From contig NW_027363790.1 in NCBI RefSeq assembly GCF_046119375.1, positions 310,001 to 374,000 of the forward strand: DNA of 64,000 nt, read 5' to 3'. Positions 5,250 through 60,214 of the stretch are shown here, piece after piece. Every line of letters begins with the position of its first letter. Position 1 is the first letter of the stretch. A program made the position numbers and the translations under genes. Under the pieces are notes generated by a model. It searched no databases. It was not told the origin of the DNA and saw only the letters and a program-made list of their open reading frames with translations. The stretch is from Phyllobates terribilis (taxonomy: Eukaryota).

Positions 5250-6279
5250 TCTCACTTTTTCCTGGAACTCAAGATAAGATCCTTTGTTCCCAGTTTTTCC
5301 TTATAGTACAAAAGAATTACAGTATATAAAGCCACTTGGACAAGGTGTACCACAAGTTTTTTTTTACCATACGGGAGATTTGTGAACAGCCCTGTAGAGC
5401 TGCAGCATCTGGTCCACAAGGTCCACACCACCCATGAACTTATTGTAGTCCTGTATGCAGACGGGCTTCCGGATAGTATAACTTGTCCCGCGTACAGAGA
5501 CAGGGCTGCTTCTGTCAGCATGTATTGATAACAGCATGAGGAAATCTTTTTTAACATGAAATTTGACAAGCAGCATGTCCTCATTACAGAGTGCCTTAAT
5601 TTAATTTGCCTTTAATTTTTGGGTGACAAGAGTCTTGGGCAACGCTCTTTGGTTCCGGCGTAAGGTTCCACAAGCCACTTTTTTTGGCAGACCGGCACCT
5701 GAACAGGGGTACACTTGTATAGTAGTTATCTACATACAAGTTGTAGCCCTTATCTAAAAGGGGATGGACCAGGTGCCAGACAATTTTCCCAGCTACGTTT
5801 AGGGGGGAAGGCATTCGAGAGGAACAATCTGGGTGTCTTTTCCCTCATACACCCAGAATTTGTATGTGTAGCCATTGTCGCTTTCACACAGCTTTTATAT
5901 TTTCAGTCTGAATCGGGACCTTTTATTCGGCAAGTACTTCTTGAAATGCAGCCTGCCCTTGAAAAGGACCAGAGACTCATCCATAAAGATATTTTTTTCG
6001 GAGGCATATGTCTGGGAAAATTTATTGCTAACGTAATTCATCAGGGGCCTGATTTTGTAAAGTCATAGCTGGAGTCATTGAGAGGGGGGCAATTTGCGTT
6101 TTATGCGAAATGTAGAAATCACAGAATGTTCTCAAGTCGTCGCCGGGCCATTACCTCTCTGCACATAGGGGTTTCGTACAGGACATCAGTTGACCAATAT
6201 GATCTGATGATGGTTTTTTTTATCAGACCCATATTGAGAAGAAGGCCAAAAATTGTTAAAATATCCGCCACATCAACAG
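5250..6279 (-). pseudogene. piggyBac (PGBD4-like) transposase pseudogene, 5' truncated
   Basis: Fragments LLLNMGLIKK..SYWSTD, MDESL, GYNLYVDNYYTSVPLF, DYNKFMGGVDLVDQML (three catalytic Asp contexts); many frameshifts; cut at 6280 by a hAT terminus. Confidence 0.85.
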
Positions 6280-6825
6280 TAGGCATGAGCGAACATTTCA
6301 ATGTTTGGTTAGGAAAAGTTCGCTGAACAAATTGATATTCGCCAAATTTATTCACTGAATGTTTGTCGAACATTTCCGAATCCCATAGGAGTCAATGGGG
6401 GGGGGACCAAAAAAATGCATATACAACACCTAGAAACAGGACCAAAAAGCTGCCAAAACACATCAAATTAGTTGTAAAAACCAGGGAAGTGCCATCAATT
6501 GACCCAGAGTATAAGTACTATAATTATTATTACTGTGACAGCGACATTTATTCAGTTGCGCTTTACATGTTAAAAGGGGTCACCGACTGGTACAACAGGA
6601 GAGAGGACCCCGCCTGCGAGGTCGCACTGTCACGGATGTGGTTTGTAGAACCACTGTGCCACGGACCCCAGAGAGCTTGGAGGGGTGTTACCAAGCGAGC
6701 GCCAGACTGTTCACTAGAGCATCTGATGGTGAGGTTAGACTTGGCTCCCGATGAACGCCAGGTGCCACTTCAGGACAGACCAACGGACACGCAGCAGCTG
6801 GATCCAATAGGACAGACTAGATGGT

Positions 6826-6987: not shown

Positions 6988-7191
6988 GCAGCAAGGACTG
7001 GTACGCAACCTTACACAACTTAGACTGCAGAACAGGAAGGTTCCACTACAACCAGCCCAGTAGATGGAGACCCAATCAGGATTCCCCAGATTTAAAAAAA
7101 TTAGTGGCAGATGCCAGCAAAGTGGCATCAATTTCACTACTGTAGAAATAGTGTAAATAAGACCCACACCTCTTCCAGTACAGCCAACCAC

Positions 7192-7620
7192 TGTTATGAT
7201 CTGCTACAAGCGCTAAGGAAAGACAGGAGATCTGTCCCTACATTAGAACTACGCTAGATCCCTACGATGTAACGGGGAACCTGATCCTGCGATCAGACCC
7301 GCTAAAGTCCTCAGCTAGTCTGAACGAAGACCTATAGATGTGAGGGAGGGATCCCTACAAGAACTAGGGACTGGGAGAAAGATGGACACCTCCTAGCAGA
7401 AATTGTAGCAGTAAAAAGACAAACAAACAACATAGAACATAGAGGTCAAAAGACCAAGCTAAACTGACAGAGAAAGGTAACTAAGCACCTGGCTAGCTTA
7501 AGAGTAGAAATTGAAATTACAATGAAGTCCAGCAAGGCCCGAAGGGCGGAGCAGGCTTAAATAGGCAAAAAGGTCATGTGACCAGCAAAATAGAAAAAAC
7601 CTAACAGGAGAGTTCTAACA
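7192..7620 (-). repeat. 3' LTR (429 bp); polypurine tract adjacent at 7621-7634
   Basis: TGTTATG..TAACA; AGAAGAGGGGGTAC on minus strand immediately upstream. Confidence 0.95.
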
Positions 7621-10600
7621 GTACCCCCTCTTCTATGAGGATCCCAGGCTTATCAGGAAACCTCTTGTGAAACGCTCTGACAAGTCTGGAAGCAGAAACA
7701 TCATCCGCCCTCATCCATGAGTTATACTCTGGACCGAAACCCTTCCAAGCGACGAGATACTGCAAACTCCCCCTATACCGTCTAGAATTAAGGATGCGGG
7801 AAATCTCATATTCCCCGTCCTCCACCACCGGAGGAACAGTGGCAGTGGCGTCTCTATCTGATACATCAGCTTTTTTCAAAAGAGAAACATGAAACACCGG
7901 ATTAATCTTCCAGGAGGTGGGAACCTCCAACCTAACAGCAGATTGGTTAACTACCTGAAGCACCTTAAAGGGCCCTACAAACTTGGGACCCAATTTTTTA
8001 GAAGGAATCCTCAACCGCAGATTCTTAGAGGACAACCAAACCATGTCACCAACCGTAAACAAAACCTCTTGACGTTTCCTGTCAAAGTACCTCTTAGATT
8101 TTTTGTTAGCCTCCTGAAGATTACCACGCACATCCGTCCAAACTCTCTCCAAATCACCGGAAAAACTCTCCTCCTCAGGCACAGCCGATACCAATTTGAA
8201 GAATGACCCAAAAGACGGATGTCTCCCAGAACAACAAAAAAAAGGCGAACATCCAGCAGAAGAGGATGTATGGTTGTTAAGAGCAAATTCAGCAAGCGGC
8301 AGAAACTCAGACCACCCCTCGATTGTCTGCCACAAAACAACGCAAGAACTGCTCAACATCCTGATTCTTCCTTTCTGTCTGGCCATTAGACTCAGGATGA
8401 TATCCAGATGAAAACGACAACTGAACTCCCAAACCTGTCACAAAAGGCACGCCAAAAACGAGCCACGAACTGAGGTCCCCTATCAGAAACAATGTCAGTA
8501 GGAACATCATGGAGTCTGACAATTTCCTTAACAAAAGCCTTAGCGAGTGTCTTAGCGCAGGGCAGTTTGATGAAGGGAACCAAGTGATACATCTTGCTAA
8601 AAAGGTCCACAACCACCCAGATGACCGTGAAACCCTTAGAGGAGGGAAGGTCAGTAATAAAGTCCATAGCCAGATGTGTCCAAGGTGCACTAGGAACCTC
8701 CAGAGGGCAAAGCAACCCCGCAGCAGGAGTATGAGAAGACTTAGATCTAGCAAACACAGTACATTGACGCACCCACTTGATGACTTCCTTCTGCCATCCA
8801 GGCCACCAAAAACTGCGACCCATAAGTCTCTTGGTCTCAGAAATTCCTGGATGACCTGCCAACCGAGACTCATGACACTCAACAAACAAATCTCTCCTAA
8901 AGGTCCTAGGCACAAACAACCTCCCATGGGGAGTGTTAGATGGGGCATTCTCCTGTGCTTTAAGAATCTCATCTTCCAAAACGGAGTCCAATGCAGCAAT
9001 CACAACACCTTCTTGTAAAATGCTTCCTCCTCCTCAGCACCGACCATGGGAGAAAAGCTGCGAGACAAAGCATCAGCTTTAACATTCTTGGTACCCGGGA
9101 TGTAAGTAACGGAAAAATTAAACTGCGAAAAAAAAAGTGCCCACCTAGCCTGACGGGCATTCAAGCGCTTGGCAGCATCAAGATAGATCAGATTTTTATG
9201 ATCAGTGAAAACCTGAATGGGAAATTCAGCACCTTCCAAGAGATGACGCCAGTGTTCAAATGCGAGTTTAATAGCCAGCAATTCCCGATTACCAATATCG
9301 TAATTAAGTTCAGTCTCAGAAAAATTTTTTGAAAAAAAGGCACAGGGATGTACTCCATCCTTGATTTCCTGAGACAACACCGCACCGACCCCCACAGAAG
9401 AAGCATCAACCTCAACCAAAAACGGCTTAGTCACATCAGGCTGCATAAGGATGGGGGGAGAGCTGAACCTCTCCTTTAGAAACACAAAAGCTTCAATGGC
9501 CTCAGTAGTCCACTGAACCGTATTAGCACCTTTCCTGGTGAGATCGGTCAGTGGTTTAACAATAATAGAAAATTTTTTAATGAATTTTCTGTAATAATTG
9601 GCGAAACCCAAAAACCTCTGTATCGATTTCAAACCAATAGGCGTAGGCCATTCCTGCACAGCTTGAACTTTCACCGGGTCCATTTCAAAACCCTCGCTGG
9701 AGATAATGTATCCCAAAAAACTAATTCTCTGTACAGCGAACTCGCATTTCTCTAGCTTAGCAAAAAGCGAATTGTCAATTAATAACTGTAATACCTCACA
9801 TACGCTCCGCCAATGACACTCCAGATCAGGCGAATAAATCAAAATGTCATCCAAATACACAAACACATTTTTGCCAATCAATGGTCTAAGGATGTCATTA
9901 ATAAGATTCTGAAAAAATGCTGGTGCATTGGTAAGACCAAAAGGCATAACCAGATTCTCAAAATGACCCACAGGAGTGTTAAAAGCAGTCTTCCATTCAT
10001 CACCCTCCTTCATGCGCAACAAATTGTATGCCCCCCGGAGATCAATTTTAGAGAACCACTTGGCCCCCACTAACTGGTTAAACAAATCAGGAATCAATGG
10101 CAGTGGGTAGGGATTGCGTACAGTAATTTTATTAATCTCGCGAAAGTCCAGACAGGGACGTAAACCGCCGTCCTTTTTTTTTAACAAAAAAAAATCCAAC
10201 AGCCACAGGTGACTTAGAGGGTCTGATATGACCGGCGGCCAAGCTTGTCTGTATGTATTCCTCCAAAGCCTTTCTCTCAGGAATAGTAAGATTAAATAAA
10301 CGACTTTTAGGAAGAGTCGCTCCAGGGACAAATTCAATGGTACAATCATAGTCTCTATGGGGAGGCAAAATTTGCGACTCCTCCTCAGAAAAAACTTTCC
10401 AAAAATCCTGAATAGGTACAGGTAATTCCCCTTTATCCACAGCAGCAATGCGCCCGTTACAACACTTGTCTTAACACTTAGGGCTCCAGGACTTAATTTC
10501 ATTAGTAGACCAATCCAGTACAGGATTGTGCAATTTTAACCAGGGTAACCCCAAAACTACTGGAGAAGGCAAATTATTTAATACCACCAAATCCAAATTT

Positions 10601-10880
10601 TCTTGGTGAATACCATTAACAGTGAGGGGAAATTAATAAACCTTGTGAGTAACACAGTTCAAGGGAGAGCCATCGACAGAAACCACGGCAATAGGGGATG
10701 AGAAAGGTTTGGGTTTTAATTTAAGTTTTTCCAAGAATCCCCCATCAATCACATTCAGAGTAGAACCACAATCCACAAATACCCGAAATTCAATTAATTC
10801 TTCTTGAGCTGCAGTAGTAGCAGAAAGAAATACCCCCTTAGTGTTTAAACAGGCTATACGGGAGTAACTGACCTTTTTTT
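7601..10880 (-). pseudogene. pol: pol: protease, reverse transcriptase, RNase H, integrase, chromodomain (fragmented)
   Basis: VFVDCGS protease motif; YLDD; [16 protein letters not shown]; [17 protein letters not shown] (DDE); GPKFVGPF; YEISRIL..YLVAWKGFGPEYNSW chromodomain; split across several ORFs. Confidence 0.93.
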
Positions 10881-10885
10881 TTTTC

Positions 10886-11683
10886 TTAGTTCATACGAAG
10901 CACACAGTTCTTAATGAAATGGTCAGATTTTCCGCAATAACAGCACAAACCTTCAGAAAACCTGCGGTCTTTTTCCTGAGAGCGGGGTGACATCGCCCCA
11001 ATCTCCATCGGCTCTCCAATGTCAGTACAGACCCTCTCAAGACTCGGAGCTGACATGGCAAAGGATTTACTCTCATTAACCCTTGCACGCAGTCTCCTGT
11101 CCACCCGTATAGCTAATTGCATAGCCTTCTGCAAGTTTCCAGGTGTAGGATAAGCAATCAGCAGATCCTTAAACCTTTCACCTAGCCCAGCAAGAAACAA
11201 ACTTTTCAAAGCTGAATCGTTCCACCCCACCTGAGCAGACCACCGACGGAAGTGAGTACAATAATTTTCCACATTACCTGATCCCTGCCTCAAAAATCTC
11301 AATTCCATCTCAGCTGATGAGACATGATCAGGATCATCATACAACAACCCCAAAGCAGAAAAAAAACTATCCACTGATCTAAAGCATGGATCACTAGGTT
11401 GGAGAGAAAAGGCCCATCCCTGAGGTTCTTTGCGCAAAAGAGACATTATGAACCCTATGCGCTGTGATTCATCACCAGAGGATCTGGGTCTCAAACGAAA
11501 ATACAATAAACAAGCATTTTTAAAGGAAAAAAAATCTTGCTGTTCACCAAAAAATAAATCCGGCAATCGTACCTTTGGCTCCACAAAATGCGCTCCAGAA
11601 CAGCTACTCACATGTTGTTGGAGCTCGGCCACCTCCAGAGAGAGTCCCTGCAGGCGTTGAGCCAAATCCTGAACCGACACCAT
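10886..11683 (-). CDS. gag: Retrotransposon Gag with CCHC zinc knuckle (265 aa)
   Basis: Open ORF just 3' of PBS; retrotransposon gag core; CCYCGKSDHFIKNC knuckle. Confidence 0.9.
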   Translation of the reverse strand: MVSVQDLAQRLQGLSLEVAELQQHVSSCSGAHFVEPKVRLPDLFFGEQQDFFSFKNACLLYFRLRPRSSGDESQRIGFIMSLLRKEPQGWAFSLQPSDPCFRSVDSFFSALGLLYDDPDHVSSAEMELRFLRQGSGNVENYCTHFRRWSAQVGWNDSALKSLFLAGLGERFKDLLIAYPTPGNLQKAMQLAIRVDRRLRARVNESKSFAMSAPSLERVCTDIGEPMEIGAMSPRSQEKDRRFSEGLCCYCGKSDHFIKNCVLRMN

Positions 11684-11721
11684 GATGGAAACTGGAGGTC
11701 TTTCCTTAGAGATATTTTTGG

Positions 11722-11730
11722 GCTGGACTT
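11722..11730 (-). other. Candidate self-priming primer-binding site (AAGTCCAGC)
   Basis: Begins 2 nt 3' of the 5' LTR, not a TGG tRNA-type site; perfectly complementary to GCTGGACTT in the LTR (12068-12060) ~25 nt downstream of TATTTAA. Confidence 0.75.
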
Positions 11731-11732
11731 AC

Positions 11733-12155
11733 TGTTATGATTTGCTACAAGCACTAAGGAAAGACAGGAGATCTGTCCCTACAATAGAACTACGCTAGAT
11801 CCCTACGATGTAACGGGGAACCTGATCCTGCGATCAGACCCGCTAAAGTCCTCAGCTAGTCTGAACGAAGACCTATAGATGTGAGGGAGGGATCCCTACA
11901 AGAACTAGGGACTGGGAGAAAGATGGACACCTCCTAGCAGAAATTGTAGCAGTAAAAAGACAAACAAACAACATAGAACATAGAGGTCAAAAGACCAAGC
12001 TAAACTGACAGAGAAAGGTAACTAAGCACCTGGCTAGCTTAAGAGTAGAAATTACAATGAAGTCCAGCAAGGCCAGAAGGGCGGAGCAGGATTAAATAGG
12101 CAAAAAGGTCATGTGACCAGCAAAATAGAAAAAAACTAACAGGAGAGTTCTAACA
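11733..12155 (-). repeat. 5' LTR (423 bp)
   Basis: Matches 7192-7620 with about 6 substitutions and one 6-bp indel by eye. Confidence 0.95.
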
Positions 12156-12304
12156 ACCACGGAGATGAAGACCTAACCAGGAGTGTTCACATTACCCTAA
12201 ATGAGGGCCTAACACCACCGAAGTGGCAAAAATATCATCAGACTACAAGTAGTTTAACGCAGACCCATACTTGTCCCACTACAGCCAACCCAGGAGATGC
12301 AGAC

Positions 12305-12740: not shown

Positions 12741-13269
12741 TGTTTATTGAAAATCAATTTAGAGTTTATCATGTTTGTGTACCCATTTGAGGAGAATAAT
12801 ATCTGCACCAAATGCTCAACTTCACTACAGTATAACTATAGAAATGCATGGAGACCAAAACCTCTTCCACTACAGTCAACCCAATGGATAGAGACCCATT
12901 CAGGATTCCCCACATTTCCAAAAATTAGCTGCAGACGCCAGCAAAGTCTAATCAATTTCACTACAGTAGAAACAGTGTAAATGAGACCCACATCTCATCC
13001 AGTACAAACAACCCAAGAGATGGAGACTTAACCAGGAGTGTTCACATTGCCCTAAATGAGGGCCTAACACCACTGAAGTGGCATCAATTTCACTAGAGTA
13101 TAAGTATTGCAAAGGAGGCCTAATCAGTTCCACTACAGCCAACCCAATAGATGGAGACCCAATCAGGATTCCCCACATTTAAAAAAAATTGTGGCAGACG
13201 CCAGCAAAGTGGCATCAATTTCACTACTGTACAAATAGTGTAAATAAGACCTACACCTCTTCCAGTACA

Positions 13270-16200
13270 GCCAACCGGCAGCGCTGAAGACACTTTCAAA
13301 GGGAACGCTGGCTGCTGGGCATGATAAAACCTCCAAAGCGTGAGAGGCGAGCTCAGGCCATTCATCCATTTTTGAAGACCAAAATGTAAAAGGGTCCAAA
13401 CCCTCCCTGATGGTATTGATATTGAACTCTAGATACTCCTGCACCATCCTCTAAAGTCGTTCATCACGTGTCAGACTTGTACTCTGTTGTGCTGGTGCAA
13501 AAAATATGTGAAAAGATTCACAGAAATTGCTTCTGCCACTTACTCTGCTGCTGCTAATGTTTTGGCGTTGACGAACTGATGTGCTGGAGGTTGAAAGACT
13601 ACAGCTGCGATGCACACTGTGTGCCTCACTGTTATCTTGGGGAAAACCTCTATTAAGGTTGCTTAAAAGCTTGTTTCGATACTCCAACATAAGCGGGTCC
13701 CTTTCCGGAGCGGGAAGCATCTGGCAAAATTGACTCTTATAACGTGGATCTAACAGGGTGGCAACCAAGTAGTCAGCATTATTTCGAATCTTAACTATAC
13801 GGGGATTATGTTGCAGATAGAGCATCAAAAAGGCACTCATATGTCGGGCTCTTCCAGGAGGTCCAAAGCCAGGCTGTATTGTGGGCTGCGTAACACTGAT
13901 GCTTGTACCCTCCATCCCCTCCTGCCAACGACATTCAAACAAGAGGGGATGATTATCCTCTTCATCCTCTGACAGCTGCTCACCCATCACCTCTTCCTCC
14001 TCCATTAGTTCCTCGGCTTTTGCATCTTCACTAACAGTTTGCCTGGTATCACCAAACCCCCTTGATCGCTGTAATCCACCGTCACTTGGCATCCACCTGT
14101 GTGACGACAGACTGGAAATTTGAGACATTGGTATCCCTTCCGCACCCTCCTCTTGTTCTGGGGCCACCACCTCCTGCTGCAGGTTATTTCAAAGTTTGCT
14201 CCAGCATGTATATGACCGGAAGAGTGATGCTGATGCCATCGTCAGCGCTAACCAGTTTAGTAGCCATTTCAAAACCATGCAAAAGGGTGCAGAGGTCCTT
14301 AATCTGTTCCCACTCCGCAAATGTGATATGCCCCAAGTCCGTACTGCGTTGCTTCAAGCTGTACGTGATGACATACTGCGTCAGAGCTCGTTGCTGCTGG
14401 CACAGTCGCTGCAACATGTGCAGAGTGGAATTCCACCGCATCGGCACATTGCAGATCCAACCTGTTAACTGGCACAGACAAAGACCTCTGTATTGATGCA
14501 AGTCAATGACATGAAGGGTGCGAACGGTGGAAGTGAGCACACAGCTTCTGTACTTTGTGAAGCAGCTCATCCAGGCCAGGATAGTGGCGAGAAATCGCTG
14601 TACCACCAGGTTGAGGACGTGAGCCATGCAAGGCACGTGTGCGAGCTTGCCTCGGCCTAGGGCCACTAACAGGTTCGCACCGTTATCGCACATGGCCTTC
14701 CCTGGCTCTAGGTTCAGCGGAGACAGCCATTGCTGAAACTGAGCCTGGAGATCTGCCCACAACTCTTCACCTGTATGACTGCAATTTCCAAGGCATATTA
14801 ATTTGAAGACTGCCTGATTATGGTGAGCCCTGACTGCGCATTACGGAGGTGGTGTATATTCGCTCCGCACCCTTGGAACGCGTGTCTCGTTAAGGCAGAG
14901 GTTGAGTGCGTAGGTGGAGGCCCTAGAGGGGAGGTGGAGGATGCAGAAGCAGCGGAGGAAGTGGGAAATACAGAGGTTTCTTCTGCAAGCCTTGGGGATT
15001 TCAAGATTTGTGGAGCAGCCCCTTCCCCGCCTGCCCCCACAGCCACCAGAGTCACCCAGTGCCCAGTCAGCGAGATGTAATGCACTTGGCTATGCTTACT
15101 TGTCTAAGTGTCTGTGGTGAAATGCACCCTGGCGCACATGGATTTCGACAAGGAACGGGTGAAGTTGTCTGTGACATGCTGGTGTAGCGCAGGCACAGCT
15201 TTCTTAGAGAAGTAATGGAGACTGGGCAACTGGTACTGGGGAACTGCGACGGCCAATAGTTTTCGGAAACTGTATCTACCAGACCCAAAGGCAACATTTC
15301 TGTGGCCAACAGATTGAAGATGGTGGAGTTCAAGCTCTTAGCTTTGTCATGCGTAGGATGAAACAATCTTTTACGCGACCACAACTGCGGGACCGAGGGC
15401 TGGCTAAGGTGCTGAGAGAGGGTGCAGTATGGTGAACCGGAAAAACTGGTGGAGTGTGAGTGAGGTGAAGAAGTTACGGTGGATTGAGAAACATGCGGTG
15501 TGCTCGGTGAAACAAACACAGCAGACGTGTCCGCTTCCGTTACAGCTGACAAGCTGTCACTCAGCCTGACTGGAGCGGGTAAAGAACCGGAGTTTCTGCG
15601 ATGGGAGACCTGCGTGACAATACTTGGCACGGTAACAGAGGAGGAGGAAGAAGCAGCGGATGTGTTTGATGGGGCAGCTGATGGTTGTTGAAGTGCGCTG
15701 TTCCGCATTTCAGCGCGGTAAGATTCCCAGCATAAAGAATGTTGTTTGAGCATGTGAACGTTCATGCATATAGTAGTCAAATTATTGCAGTTTTTCCCTC
15801 TACTGAATTTTTTATTGCAATGTTTGCAGATAACGTGAGTTGGCTCATCCTTTGCAGTGACAAAAAAGGCCCATGCATGGCAACCCTTGCTGCCCCTGCG
15901 AGCTGCAGACCGTGACCCCTTCTGGCCACAGCCATAGTTGTGGCTGAGGATGCAGTGCTCCTTGTGCTTGCATCACTCCATGTCTGTGCCGTAGGGTGAA
16001 ATGTAACCTCCTTGTCTTCCTCCTCCACCTCCTCTGATGAGCTACTCGGCTGTGTGACTCTGGGTTCACACCAAGTAGGATCTTCAACCTGGTCATCATC
16101 CAATGTGTTATCCCATTCCTCTCCCTCAGAGTGACCCCTCTCCTCTTGCTGCCCTGACAGCACAGTACTGTCCGCATGAGATTCAGTTATCTGAGTCTCA

Positions 16201-23728: not shown

Positions 23729-23750
23729 GCAAGTACAAGGAAACATAAAC

Positions 23751-24890
23751 TGGGGGCACAGGTGACATTACTAATATATAGGGGCACAGGTGACATTACT
23801 AATATATAGGGGGCACACAGGTGACATTACTAATATATGGGGGCACACAAGTGACATTACTAATATATGGGGCACACAGGTGACATTACTAATATATGGG
23901 GGCACACAAGTGACATTACTAATATATGGGGGCACAGGTGACATTACTGATATATGGGGGCACACAGGGGACATTACTATTATATGGGGGCACACAGGTG
24001 ACATTACTATTATATGGGGGCACACAGGTGACATTACTAATATATGGGGGCACACAGGTGACATAACTATTATATGGGGGCACACAGGTGACATTACTAA
24101 TATATGGGGGCACACAAGTGACATTACTAATATATGAGGGCACACAGAGGGCATTACTAATATATGGGGGCACACAGGTGACATTACTAATATATGGGGG
24201 CACACAGGTGACATAACTATTATATGGGGGCACACAGGTGACATTACTATTATATGGGGGCACACAGGTGACATTACTAATATATGGGGGCACACAGGTG
24301 ACATAACTATTATATGGGGGCACACAGGGGACATTACTAATATATGGGGGCACACAGGTGACATTAGTAATATATGAGGGCACACAGGTGACATTACTAA
24401 TATATGGGGGCACACAGGTGACATTACTAATATATGGGGGCACACAGGGGACATTACTAATATATGGGGGCACACAGGCTACATTACTAATATATGGGGG
24501 CACACAGGTGACATTACTAATATATGGGGGCACACAGGTGACATTACTAATATATGGGGGCACACAAGGGGCAGTAATACTATTTCGGGCACACAGGGGA
24601 CATTACTAATATATGGAGGCACACAGGGGACATTACTAATATATGGGCGCACACAGGAGACATTACTAATATATGAGGGCACACAGGGGACATTACTAAT
24701 ATATGGGGGCACACAGGGGACATTACTAATATATGGGGGCACACAGGAGACATTACTAATATATGGGGGCACACAGGCTACATTACTAATATATGGGGGC
24801 ACACAGGGGACATTACTAATATATGGGGGCACACAGGGGACATTACTAATATATGGGGGGCACACAGGGGGCAGTAATACTATTTCGGGC
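23751..24890. repeat. 30-bp minisatellite (CACACAGGTGACATTACTAATATATGGGGG), ~38 units
   Basis: Directly visible; produces spurious CPHILVMSPV / VPPYISNVTC ORFs. Confidence 0.97.
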
Positions 24891-25136
24891 ACACAGGAGG
24901 AGTTGTGGCCGCTGCAGGTGAATAGGGGAATATTATCTTGTGGGGTCACATGGGGAGAAGGGAGAATTATTACAGTGGCCGGTACAGAGGGGACATTACT
25001 CTCTGGAGGAGAGGAGGAAATAATAAGGACTATAGTGCGTGTGATAATAATGTGTACAGCGCTGTGGAGTGTGACGGCGATATAGACGGAAGAGGAAGAA
25101 ATAATCCGCATAGAGAATAACGCGGAGTCTGCACAG

Positions 25137-37073: not shown

Positions 37074-37495
37074 TGTTATGTTCTGCTACCAGAGCTAAGG
37101 AAAGAGAGGAGATCTGTCCCTACGATAGAACTCAGCTTAATCCCTACGATGTAACAGGGGACCTGATCCTGCGATCAGACCTGCTAAAGTCCTAAGCTAG
37201 TCTGTACGGAGACCTATAGATGTGGGGAAGGAATCCCTACAAGTACTAAGGACTGGGAGGAATATGGGACACCTCCTAACAGAAATAGTAGCAGACAGAC
37301 GAACAAACAAAATATATAGAACATAGAGGTCAGTAGACCAAGCAAACTAACAGAGCAAGACACAGAGCACAGGCTAGCTAGAAAGTAGATATACAATGAA
37401 GTCCAGCAAAGCCAGAAGGGCGGAGCAGGCTTAAATAGGCCAACAAGGTCATGTGACCAGCAAAGGAAAAAAAACCTAAGAGCAAGGTTCTAACA
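37074..37495 (-). mobile_element. Solo LTR related to the chromovirus LTR
   Basis: TGTTATG..TAACA, TSD ATTGC (37069-37073 / 37496-37500), clear but diverged similarity to 7192-7620. Confidence 0.93.
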
Positions 37496-39929: not shown

Positions 39930-40635
<706 letters not shown>

Positions 40636-42074
40636 TCAACAGGAAAAAGGCCTCTCTTCTGTGTGGGTTCTCAGGTGCTTAATCAAATGTGATTTCTGGT
40701 TAAAACATTTCCCACATTCTGAACATGAAAAAGGCCTCTCTTCTGTGTGGGTTCTCAGGTGCTTAATCAAATCTGATTTCTGGTTAAAACATTTCCCACA
40801 TTCTGAACATGAAAAAGGCTTCTCCCCTGTGTGGGTTCTCTGGTGGTTATCAAGATTCTGTTTCAGGTTAAAACATTTTCCACATTCTGAACATGAAAAA
40901 GGCTTCTCCCCTGTGTGGGTTCTCTGGTGGTTATCAAGATTCTGTTTCAGGTTAAAACATTTCCCACATTCTGAACATGAAAAAGGCTTCTCCCCTGTGT
41001 GGGTTCTCTGGTGGTTATCAAGATTCTGTTTCCGGTTAAAACATTTCCCACATTCTGAACATGAAAAAGGTTTCTCCCCTGTGTGGGTTCTCTGGTGGCT
41101 ACGAAGATGCGATTTCCAGCTAAAACATTTCCCACATTCTGAGCATGAAAAAGGCTTCTCCCCTGTGTGGGTTCTTTTGTGCATAACAACATCTGATTTC
41201 CATTTAAAACATTTCCCACATTCTGAACATGAAAAAGGCTTCTCTCCTGTGTGAGTTCTCTGGTGGTTATCAAGATTCTGTTTCCGGTTAAAACATTTCC
41301 CACATTCTGAGCATGAAAAAGGCTTCTCCCCTGTGTGAGTTCTCTGGTGGTTATCAAGATGCTGTTTCCATCTGAAACATTTCCCACATTCTGAACATGA
41401 AAAAGGCTTCTCCCCTGTGTGGGTTCTCTGATGGCTATCAAGATACGCTTTTCGGTTAAAACATTTCCCACATTCTGAACATGAAAAAGACTTCTTCCCT
41501 GTGTGCGTTATTTGGTGCAAAACAAGACTACGTTTATGTCTAAAATATTTTCCACATTCTGAGCAGGAAAAAGGCTTCTCCCCTGTGTGAGTTCTCTGAT
41601 GACTAAGAAGAGATGATTTCTTCATAAAACATTTCCCACATTCTGAACATGAAAATGAATTCTCCCCTGCGTGAGTTCTCTGGTGTCGAACAAGTTTCGA
41701 TTTCTGGTTAAAACATTTCCCACACTTGGAACAATAAAATATATTCTCTGCTGTGTGAATGTCTTGATTCTTAAGAAAAAACTTTTGGAGAGGAAAACTA
41801 TTTCCATATTCTGAACATGAAAATGGATTATTTGCCTTAGGAGCAGTTTGCTTTTTAATGCTTATTTTGTGACTTTGATTTTCCTTAGTAGTCGGTAATG
41901 AATCAGAAGACAGGACCTGTTTCAAAGGATCAGATGACAGATCTTTGCTGTGAAGGGATGATGGTGTATCTGGAGTAATGGCATTCACTTCAATTGTATC
42001 TTGTGGCATCTCAAGATCATCGGATTTAAAAATTGATGATGTCAGCTGTCCCTCTGATCTCCTGGTACAGTCAT
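40636..42074 (-). CDS. KRAB-C2H2 ZNF gene, last coding exon: linker, 1 degenerate and 13 intact C2H2 fingers
   Basis: TTATTCTTGGCAG acceptor, phase 1; [19 protein letters not shown] repeats; TGA at 40636-40638. Confidence 0.95.
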
Positions 42075-56524: not shown

Positions 56525-56734
56525 ACAATACGTTTCCTTCCTTCCTGTCTCCATAGTTGGGTCGTATGTATCTATTACAGGAAACAGAACAAAAACCTTA
56601 TGATTCTTATAAAGGGGCAACACAAGACCCCAAAAGAGTCTCGGTGCTGAAGGGGTTACTGCCCCCCGCGCCCAGTAATGGGGTCTCCACATACCTCCAC
56701 CTGCAGAGCCGCCACCACATATATGGCTGCTCTG
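56525..56734. repeat. 210-bp direct repeat, copy 1
   Basis: Apparently identical to 58771-58980. Confidence 0.95.
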
Positions 56735-58745
56735 GTGGTGGCATCATACATACAGCATAAGGGGCATAATGGGGGCATTACAATGCGTGGGGATATCATA
56801 CATACTGCATAAGGGGCATAATGGGGACATTACACTGTGTGGGGACATCATACATACTGCATAAGGGGCATAATGGGGACATTACACTGTGTGGGGGCAT
56901 CATACATACTGCATAAGGGGCATAATGGGGGCATCACACTGTGTGGGGGCATCATACATACTGCATAAGGGGCATAATGGGGGCATTACACTGCGTGGGG
57001 ATATCATACATACTGCATAAGGGGCATAATGGGGACATTACACTGTGTGAGGGCATCATACATAATGCATAAGGGGCATAATGGGGTCATTACACTGCGT
57101 GGGGACATCATACATACTGCATAAGGGGCATAATTGGGCATTACACTGTGTGGGGGCATCATACATACTGCATAAGGGGCATAATGGGGGCATCACACTG
57201 TGTGGGGGCATCATACATACTGCATAAGGGGCATAATGGGGGCATTACACTGTGTGGGGGCATCATACCTACTGTATAAGGGGCATAATGGGGGCATTAC
57301 AGTGTGTGGGGGCATCATACATCCTGTATAAGGGGCATTACACTGTGTGGGGGACTCATACATACTGTATAAGGGGCATAATGGGGGCATTACACTGTGG
57401 GGGCATCATACATCCTGTATAAGGGGCATAATGAGGGCATTACACTGTGTGGGGGACTCATACATACTGTATAAGGGGCATCATGGGGGCATTACACTGT
57501 GTGGGGCATCATATATCCTGTATAAGGGGCATAATGGGGGCATCATACATCCTGCATAAGGGGCATAATGGGGGCATTACACTGTGTGGGGGCATCATAC
57601 ATCCTGCATAACGGGCATAATGGGGGCATTACACTGTGTGGGGGCATCATACATCCTGCATAAGGGGCATCACACTGTGTGGGGGCATCATACATACTGC
57701 ACAAGGGGCATAATGGGGGCATTACACTGTGTGGTGGCATCATACATCCTGCATAAGGGGCATAATGGGGGCATTACACTGTGTGGTGGCATCATACATT
57801 CTGCATAAGGGGCATAATGGGGGCATTACACTGTGTGGGGGCATCATACATACTGCATAAGGGGCATAATGGGGACATCACACTGTGTGGGGGCATCATA
57901 CATCCTGCATAAGGGGCATCACACTGTGTGGGGGCATCATACATACTGCACAAGGGGCATAATGGGGGCATTACACTGTGTGGTGGCATCATACATCCTG
58001 CATAAGGGGCATAATGGGGGCATTACACTGTGTGGTGGCATCATACATTCTGCATAAGGGGCATAATGGGGGCATTACACTGTGTGGGGGCATCATACAT
58101 ACTGCATAAGGGGCATAATGGGGACATCACACTGTGTGGGGGGCATCATAAATCCTGCATAAGGGGCATAATGGGGGCATCACACATCCTGCATAAGGGG
58201 CATAATGGGGGCATTACACTGTGTGGGGGCATCATACATACTACATAAAGAGCATAATGGGGGCATTACACTGTGTGGGGGCATCATACATCCTGCATAA
58301 GGGGCATAATGGGGGCATCACACTGTGTGGGTGGCATCATAGATCCTGCATAAGGGGCATAATGGGGGCATTACACTGTGTGCGGGCATCATACATCCTG
58401 CATAAGGGGCATAATGGGGGCATTACACTGTGGGGGGCATCATACATCCTGCATAAGGGGCATAATGGGGGCATTACACTGTGTGCGGGCATCATACATC
58501 CTGCATAAGGGGCATAATAGGGGCATTACACTGTGTGCGGGTATCATACATCCTGCATAAGGGGCATAATGGGGGCATTACACTGTGGGGGGCATCATAC
58601 ATCCTGCATAAGGGGCATAATGGGGGCATTACACTGTGTGGGGCATCATACATCCTGCATAAGGGGCATAATGGGGGCATTACACTGTGTGGGGGCATCA
58701 TACATCCTGCATAAGGGGCATAATGGGGGCATAACACTGTGGGGC
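56735..58745. repeat. ~52-bp minisatellite (GGCATTACACTGTGTGGGGGCATCATACATACTGCATAAGGGGCATAATGGG)
   Basis: Directly visible, ~38 variant units; a lone monomer at ~55780-55820. Confidence 0.96.
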
Positions 58746-59040: not shown

Positions 59041-59139
59041 GGCCTCAGTGGATGCGGGACTCTGCTGTGCTGGTTGTCATGGTGCTGGATGAGCTGAAGG
59101 TTTTGTGTGGGGTCAGGAGGGGTTTACAGTGTGGATGTA

Positions 59140-60175
59140 GCAGAGCCGTGTGTGTACGAGGTGTACGGAGCGGAGCCGCGTGTGTACGAGGTGTACGGAG
59201 CGGAGCCGCGCGTGTACGAGGTGTACGGAGCAGAGCCGTGTGTACGAGGTGTACGGAGCGGAGCCGCGTGTGTACGAGGTGTACGGAGCGGAGCCGCGCG
59301 TGTACGAGGTGTACGGAGCGGAGCCGCGCGTGTACGAGGTGTACGGAGCAGAGCCGTGTGTGTACGAGGTGTACGGAGCAGAGCCGCGTGTGTACGAGGT
59401 GTACGGAGCGGAGCCGCGCGTGTACGAGGTGTACGGAGCGGAGCCGCGCGTGTACGAGGTGTACGGAGCAGAGCCGTGTGTACGAGGTGTACGGAGCGGA
59501 GCCGCGTGTGTACGAGGTGTACGGAGCGGAGCCGCGCGTGTACGAGGTGTACGGAGCGGAGCCGCGCGTGTACGAGGTGTACGGAGCAGAGCCGTGTGTA
59601 CGAGGTGTACGGAGCGGAGCCGCGTGTGTACGAGGTGTACGGAGCAGAGCCGCGTGTGTACGAGGTGTACGGAGCGGAGCCGCGCGTGTACGAGGTGTAC
59701 GGGGCGGAGCCGCGCGTGTACGAGGTGTACGGGGCGGAGCCGCGCGTGTACGAGGTGTACGGGGCGGAGCCGCGCGTGTACGAGGTGTACGGAGCGGAGC
59801 CGCGCGTGTACGAGGTGTACGGAGCGGAGCCGCGCGTGTACGAGGTGTACGGAGCGGAGCCGCGCGTGTACGAGGTGTACGGAGCGGAGCCGCGCGTGTA
59901 CGAGGTGTACGGGGCGGAGCCGCGCGTGTACGAGGTGTACGGGGCGGAGCCGCGCGTGTACGAGGTGTACGGGGCGGAGCCGCGTGTGTACGAGGTGTAC
60001 GGAGCGGAGCCGCGTGTGTAAGAGGTGTACGGAGCGGAGCAGCGTGTGTAAGAGGTGTACGGAGCGGAGCCGCGTGTGTACGAGGCGTACGGAGCGGAGC
60101 CGGGCGTGTGCGAGGCGTGCGGAGCGGAGCCAGGCGTGCGGAGCGGAGCCGGGCGTGTACGAGGTGTACGGGGCG
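59140..60175. repeat. CpG-dense 30-bp minisatellite (GGAGCGGAGCCGCGCGTGTACGAGGTGTAC), ~35 units
   Basis: Directly visible, 28- and 30-bp variants. Confidence 0.97.
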
Positions 60176-60214
60176 GATGCTGCCCCTCTCCAGGAGCGAT
60201 CACAGCAGCACGGC

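What the first reader, a model, noticed from the sequence alone, without database searches (positions are those of the whole stretch)
11722..12100. Chromovirus with a tRNA-independent, self-priming primer site
Seen: the sense-strand sequence after the 5' LTR is gt-AAGTCCAGC rather than a TGG-starting tRNA PBS. Its exact 9-nt complement GCTGGACTT lies in the LTR (12068-12060) ~25 nt downstream of TATTTAA, where transcription would be expected to start. The same 9-mer is retained in the 3' LTR (7525-7533) and in the diverged solo LTR (37399-37407). Established: Tf1 of S. pombe primes reverse transcription by pairing the mRNA 5' end to the PBS, and this has been proposed for vertebrate Tf1/sushi chromoviruses. 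Inference: this frog family self-primes, and the TSS is at or next to 12068.
Basis: partly seen in the sequence, partly recalled or inferred. Interest (0 to 1): 0.7.

Follow-up and report, generated by a model that had tools for sequence, protein, structure and literature searches.

The report
Self-priming sushi-type retrotransposon family
This jumping gene has no ordinary tRNA docking site; the nine bases after its left repeat pair with the predicted start of its own RNA, and related families keep that pairing with different letters, so it likely primes its own copying, a trick known from yeast Tf1 and already proposed for this group in vertebrates.

Summary
Observation confirmed. A 4,964-bp chromodomain Ty3/gypsy element (minus strand, 12155-7192, GTGGT target duplication) has GT+AAGTCCAGC after its 5' LTR. 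The complement starts 30 nt after the first base of TATTTAA. The family has 16,990 LTR-leader junctions. Covariation, the key test, holds across families: of 39 delimited chromovirus elements (nine primer types, three lineages), 33 pair perfectly and 5 have one non-Watson-Crick position, always 29-33 nt after a TATA-like box. Two non-chromovirus controls lack this. A 12-bp U5-leader stem gives the Tf1 'pretzel' topology. Self-priming is likely (0.85), but the start site and cleavage were not observed. Results against: the 9-mer also equals the anticodon arm of 15 of 60 tRNA-Ser(TGA)-type genes found, so tRNA-half priming is not excluded for this family; and no compensated variant was found at four positions within it. 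The mechanism is published for the Tf1/sushi group, and this scan noted it before in this genome (e1-8631615, e1-9302274). One possibly new detail: a C that the LTR does not template follows the primer site in 61 of 61 sites and may be a copy of the RNA cap. Verdict: new member of a known kind; interest 0.33.

The parts
12156..12160 (-). left target-site duplication GTGGT
11733..12155 (-). 5' LTR, 423 bp, TG...CA
12092..12098 (-). TATA-like box TATTTAA, first base 30 nt before the predicted start
   Evidence: offset -29 to -33 in 39 of 39 elements (three G-type copies and one E-type copy have only a weak box)
12060..12068 (-). predicted self-primer GCTGGACTT (predicted RNA nt 1-9; start at 12068 inferred)
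12054..12058 (-). predicted RNA nt 11-15, predicted to pair with 11735-11731 after one bulged C (short upstream duplex)
   Evidence: minimum-energy and centroid folds
11754..11765 (-). U5 arm of a 12-bp U5-leader stem
   Evidence: 0 of 500 leader shuffles pair as well
11731..11732 (-). 2-nt spacer GT (GC in 1 of 57 junctions)
11722..11730 (-). primer-binding site AAGTCCAGC
11721..11721 (-). near-invariant C after the PBS, not complementary to the base before the primer; candidate copy of the m7G cap (inferred)
   Evidence: 39 of 39, 22 of 22, 100 of 100 listed, 56 of 57
11698..11709 (-). leader arm of the U5-leader stem
10886..11683 (-). gag: Retrotrans_gag domain and a C-X2-C-X4-H-X4-C knuckle
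7601..10890 (-). pol in four separate reading-frame pieces in this copy: protease-like (below Pfam cut-off), RT-RNase H, integrase zinc finger and core, SH3_Tf2-1 plus chromodomain
7623..7634 (-). polypurine tract before the 3' LTR
7192..7620 (-). 3' LTR, 429 bp; holds the 9-mer at 7533-7525
7187..7191 (-). right target-site duplication GTGGT
37074..37495 (-). solo LTR of a sister subfamily, GCAAT duplication, 9-mer at 37407-37399

Best explanation
This is a chromodomain Ty3/gypsy retrotransposon whose primer site is complementary to nine bases of its own LTR and which likely primes reverse transcription with the predicted 5' end of its own RNA, as Tf1 does. Shown: LTRs, target duplication, domains, the 9-bp complementarity, its position 30 nt after a TATA-like box, a 12-bp U5-leader complement, and the same layout with different letters in eight other primer types. 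Inferred: transcription starts at G12068; nt 1-9 fold back onto the PBS about 335 nt downstream, flanked by a short upstream duplex and the crossing U5-leader stem ('pretzel'); RNase H would cut just after the primer (Tf1: between nt 11 and 12); the freed 3' end would prime minus-strand DNA; the capped primer would later be copied into the plus-strand PBS, which may explain the extra C.
For: Of 39 delimited chromovirus elements, 33 pair fully, 5 have one non-Watson-Crick position and 1 has three; TATA-like box at -29 to -33 in all 39; pyrimidine at -1 in all 39. In nine type representatives all 89 primer:PBS columns are Watson-Crick; positions 3-8 each show 3-4 different pair types. Own PBS against own LTR gives 9-12 nt, other combinations mostly 4-8 (three 9s), controls 5-6. 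14 of 22 further PBS sites have an exact complement at the same place and 3 a near one; 5 have none found. One-step compensatory series: ATCTGAGCGC/ATCAGAGCGC and ATACTCTAGC/ATACTCAAGC/ATACTCAGGC. The 38 self-complementary elements in the RT tree form one clade (SH-aLRT 100, quick tree). With the predicted start, primer:PBS pair probabilities are 0.95-1.0. U5-leader stem: 0 of 500 shuffles. Self-priming is described as common to Tf1/sushi elements, vertebrates included (passages of PMC6317226, PMC4600332, bioRxiv 10.1101/2022.12.06.519325).
Against: Start site, cleavage and priming were not observed. The 9-mer equals nt 26-34 of a tRNA-Ser(TGA) variant, and a half ending at nt 34-36 pairs as stably with the PBS region (-20.4 to -22.0 kcal/mol) as the element's own first 20 nt (-19.5). 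No copy changed at both partners at four positions tested; 70 copies have a changed primer G4 and none a compensated PBS. The duplex is 9 bp, against 10 or more in the other types and 11 in Tf1. The whole leader folds only slightly better than shuffles (z -1.66, 6 of 100). The U5-leader stem is significant in only part of the other families (A, A2, B, E, F, G: 37-250 of 500). Kin share letters, so nine types are fewer than nine independent events.
Confidence: 0.85

Rival explanations
1. This one family is primed, wholly or partly, by a 5' half of tRNA-Ser(UGA) cut in the anticodon loop; the LTR match would then be an inherited relic or a second option.
For: 15 tandem tRNA-Ser(TGA) genes, one Arg(TCT) and one Gln(TTG) gene hold the exact 9-mer ending in the anticodon loop. 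39 more Ser(TGA)-type copies would pair with one G-U, 6 with a mismatch. Duplex energy is comparable. The PBS is fixed across subfamilies (99 of 100 listed) with no compensated variant at four positions. Four other primer types gave no tRNA gene in the 21 loci checked of 38 matches, so the match is specific to this family.
Against: The LTR complement sits where it sits in all other families. The exact-match tRNA is a minority variant (15 of 60 found) with a C27-A43 mismatch in its anticodon stem. Copying that tRNA past the 9-mer would put G, not the observed C, after the PBS, and the next base varies (C 31, T 18, A 8 of 57). Half-tRNA priming is reported only for Ty1/copia elements (PMC6317226, PMC10886601). 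Halves cut in the loop end in cyclic phosphates that cannot prime (recalled). A rough estimate, not computed from a full tRNA set, gives a 1-10% chance that one of nine primer types meets such a match.
Confidence: 0.07
2. The primer has the element's sequence but comes from elsewhere: the copy of the 9-mer near the RNA's 3' end, a second RNA molecule, or an RNA that starts further upstream.
For: The 9-mer is also in the 3' LTR. An earlier scan note proposes this for another Gypsy lineage (e1-7857552; not tested here). No start-site data.
Against: Pairing stops exactly at the base 30 nt after the TATA-like box: in 9 of 9 types the base before the primer does not pair with the base after the PBS, as expected for an RNA 5' end.
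Confidence: 0.05
3. The pairing is structural or regulatory (translation, packaging) and priming uses something else.
For: Covariation shows selection for pairing, not what the pair does.
Against: One arm always starts 2 nt after the LTR end, where a primer must bind; no TGG site is present; Tf1 precedent.
Confidence: 0.03
4. Chance complementarity.
For: A 9-mer complement occurs in 0.3-2% of shuffled LTRs; three of the off-diagonal PBS/LTR combinations reach 9 nt.
Against: It recurs at one fixed position in nine sequence types.
Confidence: 0.01

Closest known systems
Tf1/Tf2 of Schizosaccharomyces pombe (also Tj1, Tosmo1-3, Tcry1)
   Same: Chromodomain Ty3/gypsy element; no tRNA PBS; PBS complementary to the (here predicted) RNA 5' end; flanking duplexes possible (passages of PMC7175516, PMC4600332, bioRxiv 10.1101/2022.12.06.519325).
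   Different: Primer 9 nt here, 11 nt in Tf1; start and cleavage are shown for Tf1, only predicted here; this Gag has a CCHC knuckle, which the fission-yeast Gags lack.
[quoted passage not shown] 2001
   Same: Vertebrate-type chromovirus for which self-priming and the 'pretzel' were proposed (seen only through citing passages).
   Different: Butler 2001 itself was not read. No reference RT was in the tree, so the exact clade is untested. This family forms its own lineage, about 55-61% RT identity to the other families sampled.
Half-tRNA-primed Ty1/copia elements (Drosophila copia, yeast Ty5; plant Osser, Bryco, Bianca)
   Same: The PBS matches a tRNA anticodon arm.
   Different: Gypsy domain order; 9-nt match only; an LTR complement is present at the TATA-defined start; half-tRNA use is reported only in Ty1/copia.

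Membership tests
Tf1/sushi chromoviruses | Ty3/gypsy order gag, PR, RT, RNase H, IN between TG...CA LTRs | tested here: met
   best solved relative is Ty3 RT; protease hit below Pfam cut-off
Tf1/sushi chromoviruses | Chromodomain at the integrase C-terminus | tested here: met
   PF00385 43.2 bits (cut-off 25.1) after PF24626 69.7 bits
Tf1/sushi chromoviruses | No PBS for a tRNA 3' end (TGG...) | tested here: met
   no TGG in the 33 nt after the LTR; PBS fixed in 99 of 100 listed copies
Tf1/sushi chromoviruses | PBS complementary to an LTR segment at the promoter-defined start, covarying among relatives | tested here: met
Tf1/sushi chromoviruses | Transcription actually starts at the primer's first base | not testable with these tools
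   no RNA holder on record and contigs only
Tf1/sushi chromoviruses | Three-duplex 'pretzel' structure | tested here: inconclusive
   central duplex and 12-bp U5-leader stem found (0 of 500 shuffles), but the leader arm starts 12 nt after the PBS and the upstream duplex is only 5 bp
Tf1/sushi chromoviruses | RNase H cleavage releases the primer | not testable with these tools
   needs bench data
Tf1/sushi chromoviruses | RT/IN phylogeny groups it with Tf1, sushi-ichi, Maggy | not tested
   tree holds only elements of this genome; no reference sequences were fetched
Half-tRNA-primed copia/Ty5 type | PBS complementary to a tRNA anticodon stem-loop | tested here: inconclusive
   9 of 9 with 15 variant Ser(TGA) genes, 8 plus G-U with 39; pairing beyond needs a bulge and the base involved varies
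Half-tRNA-primed copia/Ty5 type | Ty1/copia domain order (IN before RT) | tested here: not met
   RT-RNase H precedes IN

The most novel reading that the evidence does not exclude
The C that follows the primer site in every family, although the LTR base before the primer would give A or G, is a copy of the m7G cap: these vertebrate-type chromoviruses keep a capped self-primer on their cDNA, reverse transcriptase reads through it into the cap, and the genome thereby records each family's transcription start to the nucleotide. (A bolder but much less likely reading, that this family's primer doubles as a tRNA-Ser half site, is scored among the rivals at 0.07.)
Probability: 0.4. Interest if true: 0.55.

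Novelty: new member of a known kind. Interest (0 to 1): 0.33.

Why it matters
Self-priming has been shown by experiment in fission yeast and proposed from sequence for vertebrate Tf1/sushi elements. This genome gives nine covarying primer types with a fixed promoter geometry and a 17,000-copy family, so the proposal becomes easy to test with 5'-end sequencing. If the extra C is a cap copy, it is a cheap genomic marker of self-priming and of the start site in any LTR family. A self-primed family would also likely escape silencing by tRNA 3' fragments (inference from recalled literature). As a mechanism it is already in print.

Tried and rejected
Start site from reads: no RNA holder listed; all 24 runs are contigs; 7 runs... 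precisely X1, X3, X5, X12 and X19, X22, X6, X10 were laid and cannot show starts. In one search none of the 40 listed differences (of 66) falls in either 9-mer while 11742, 12050, 12052 and 12071 vary; 26 rows are hidden, so this is not counted as evidence. No joint at the GTAAGT splice-donor look-alike appeared in either lay. Full host tRNA set: the Rfam search returned 63 hits and the 6 loci scanned were all tRNA-Lys, so tight patterns were used instead; types B, C, E and G were not searched against tRNAs. Write-back of primer letters into the PBS inside this family: 0 double changes at primer positions 3, 4, 6 and 7; only position 4 has a denominator (70); of 20 such copies followed up, 18 had a 3' LTR in range, 17 unchanged and 1 changed in both LTRs with the PBS unchanged; the single PBS variant listed has an unchanged primer. 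This is what decay after insertion gives and neither supports nor refutes. Close sister families: the gag search returned only copies at 95-100%; subfamilies at 81-83% gag identity have the same PBS, so no intermediate step into this 9-mer was found. Controls: of 20 integrase-selected loci only L183 and L185 gave a full non-chromovirus LTR pair; their PBS is tRNA-like by recall only. The careful tree did not finish; the quick tree is quoted, L144 left out. Papers not held: Levin 1995, Lin and Levin 1997 (RNA) and 1998, Atwood-Moore 2005 and 2006, Esnault and Levin 2015; Butler 2001 was not looked up.

Full report
1. Observation. The element lies on the minus strand from 12155 to 7192, with TG...CA LTRs of 423 and 429 bp and a GTGGT target duplication. 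After the 5' LTR come GT and AAGTCCAGC (11730-11722). The exact complement is at LTR positions 88-96 (12068-12060), 30 nt after the first base of TATTTAA. 22 of 3,000 shuffled LTRs hold such a complement anywhere. The copies at 7525-7533 and 37399-37407 are real but add little: one is the twin LTR, the other a solo LTR of a sister subfamily, 97-100% identical to the 40 scored hits.

2. What it is. Pfam finds gag, RT, RNase H, integrase zinc finger and core, SH3_Tf2-1 and a chromodomain in Ty3/gypsy order; the protease hit is below cut-off; the best solved relative is Ty3 RT. In this copy pol is in four frame pieces. The family is large: a pattern for the LTR end plus leader has 16,990 matches in the 10.57-Gb genome; 99 of the first 100 listed keep the PBS (counted by eye). 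Of the 30 closest loci, 30 keep the PBS and 29 the LTR 9-mer; 8 share this insertion's flank and are duplicates. The host name was not tested.

3. Covariation across families. I fetched 100 ten-kb loci chosen by Pfam score (PF24626, PF16297, PF00385, PF00665; fetched in 14, 15, 34, 35, 39). 38 gave a chromovirus with both 5' LTR ends defined (by the LTR pair, or for six by homology of the end), 2 gave non-chromovirus LTR pairs used as controls, 54 were oriented but not delimited, 6 had no protein match. L035, L042 and L062 were dropped before the count because their LTR start was undefined; they showed no 9-mer complement and are counted among the 54. With the window element, 39 elements fall into nine primer types: 33 pair perfectly, 5 have one non-Watson-Crick position, 1 has three. 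The best TATA-like 7-mer in a -40 to -21 search window starts at -30 in 26, -31 in 9, and -29, -32 or -33 in 4; four of these boxes are weak. The base before the primer is T (31) or C (8). In one representative per type all 89 columns are Watson-Crick; the first two are always G-C and C-G, while positions 3-8 each show three or four pair types. Each PBS matches its own LTR over 9-12 nt; cross-matches are mostly 4-8 with three 9s; the two controls reach 5 and 6 on their own LTRs. Among the 54 other loci, 22 PBS sites of known type were found in 21 loci: 14 have an exact complement after the TATA-like box, 2 one mismatch, 1 (L062) two, and 5 none at that place; 33 loci had no recognisable PBS. 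A quick RT tree (43 of 44 rows, L144 left out) puts the 38 self-complementary elements in one clade (SH-aLRT 100) of three lineages, the window family being one; it has no reference elements and is midpoint-rooted.

4. Structure. Folding the predicted RNA from 12068 gives the primer:PBS helix with pair probabilities 0.95-1.0, extended by 5 bp after a bulged C; overall folding energy is only z -1.66. U5 (11765-11754) and leader (11709-11698) are complementary over 12 bp, 11 bp in the sister subfamily; 0 and 1 of 500 shuffles do as well. This stem crosses the primer helix, as the three-duplex 'pretzel' of Tf1 would. A stem at a similar U5 place is seen in types C, D, F2 and F3 (5-23 of 500) and is not significant in A, A2, B, E, F and G (37-250 of 500).

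5. Results against. (a) tRNA halves. The 9-mer is nt 26-34 of 15 tandem tRNA-Ser(TGA) genes, and also occurs in one Arg(TCT) and one Gln(TTG) gene; 39 further Ser(TGA)-type copies have T and 6 have A at the second place. A half ending at nt 34-36 pairs with the PBS region at -20.4 to -22.0 kcal/mol against -19.5 for the element's own first 20 nt. The exact variant has a C27-A43 mismatch in its anticodon stem. Patterns for four other primer types gave 38 matches; none of the 21 loci scanned holds a tRNA gene. Half-tRNA priming is reported only for Ty1/copia. I rate this rival 0.07. (b) Within the family no copy is changed at both partners at positions 3, 4, 6 or 7; 70 copies have a changed G4, and in 17 of 18 checked the change is in the 5' LTR only, so these arose after insertion. 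(c) No read data show the start.

6. The extra C. The base after the PBS is C in 39 of 39, 22 of 22, 100 of 100 listed and 56 of 57 stored junctions (these sets overlap in part). The next base varies (C 31, T 18, A 8 of 57). Continued complementarity to the LTR would give A or G in all nine types. An m7G cap can template a C for MMLV-type RT (PMC6885630, passages), and about half of Tf1 cDNA keeps a full PBS copy at its 3' end with added nucleotides (PMC11042837, passages). Inference: the C is a cap copy or pairs with the cap, which would fix the start at G12068. It may equally be an ancestral base kept for another reason, and all types share one ancestor. Searches and the scan look-up found no statement of this, but the primary Tf1 papers were not held, so it may be in print.

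7. Mechanism. Shown: layout, complementarity, covariation, geometry. Inferred from Tf1 (first 11 bases pair with the PBS, RNase H cuts between 11 and 12; PMC7175516): start at 12068, fold-back, cut after the primer, minus-strand synthesis from it. Confidence 0.85.

8. Known or new. Self-priming is called common to the Tf1/sushi group of fungi and vertebrates (PMC6317226; bioRxiv 10.1101/2022.12.06.519325; PMC4600332). Searches for an amphibian or zebrafish treatment found nothing relevant, in a library that lacks most subscription papers. It works like Tf1; membership is met on domains, chromodomain and PBS layout, untested on phylogeny, start site and cleavage. The scan noted the same signature before in this genome (e1-8631615, e1-9302274) and in others; those notes are not independent support.

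9. Papers seen. Passages only: PMC6317226, 10.1101/2022.12.06.519325, PMC4600332, PMC3601003, PMC4340606, PMC11042837, PMC5371799, PMC10886601, PMC7175516, PMC5341516, PMC6885630. Seen only as citations: Butler 2001, Levin 1995 and 1996, Lin and Levin 1997 and 1998, Atwood-Moore 2005 and 2006. No supplements or figures were read; Figure 4D of the preprint, which shows other pretzels, bears on the extra-C question and could not be seen.

10. Verdict. Real feature, interpretation supported, new member of a known kind. Interest 0.33.

Noticed in passing
G000:C11:604.84-605.13 Mb (L203-L217): Tandem tRNA array (Ser-TGA, Ser-CGA, Asp-GTC) in which a block of 15 Ser(TGA) genes carries a C27-A43 anticodon-stem mismatch, flanked by copies with T27.
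   Followed up: partly
G000 small contigs C2755-C8306: All 150 best Retrotrans_gag hits and most of the top SH3_Tf2-1 hits lie on small unplaced contigs rather than chromosomes; possibly DNA of another organism in the assembly. Not checked.
   Followed up: no
window 13166-13450 and 6122-6391: The element sits among DNA-transposon remnants: hAT dimerisation domain and a DDE_Tnp_1_7 fragment. 8 of the 30 closest loci share its flank, so the insertion has been duplicated with its surroundings.
   Followed up: partly
G000:C1:20005207-20018828: Four family junctions at about 4.53-kb spacing suggest head-to-tail tandem copies sharing LTRs, reminiscent of the tandem Tf1/Tf2 insertions in PMC11042837.
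   Followed up: no
window 11727-11735: The LTR end plus spacer reads like a 5' splice donor (recalled motif); no joint there in laid contigs.
   Followed up: partly
L183, L185: Non-chromovirus controls have a post-LTR stretch resembling a tRNA-Ser 3'-end PBS (recalled) that does not start with TGG; L185 also has a same-sense partial copy of it inside its LTR.
   Followed up: no
L032, L054 and kin, just before the primer: Types A and B have a YY1-like motif (recalled) directly upstream of the predicted start; in type B it lies within an 8-bp inverted repeat.
   Followed up: no
window 23742-24970, 40428-41819, 56669-58683, 59062-60197: Long tandem arrays with units of 30, 84, 52 and 30 bp.
   Followed up: no
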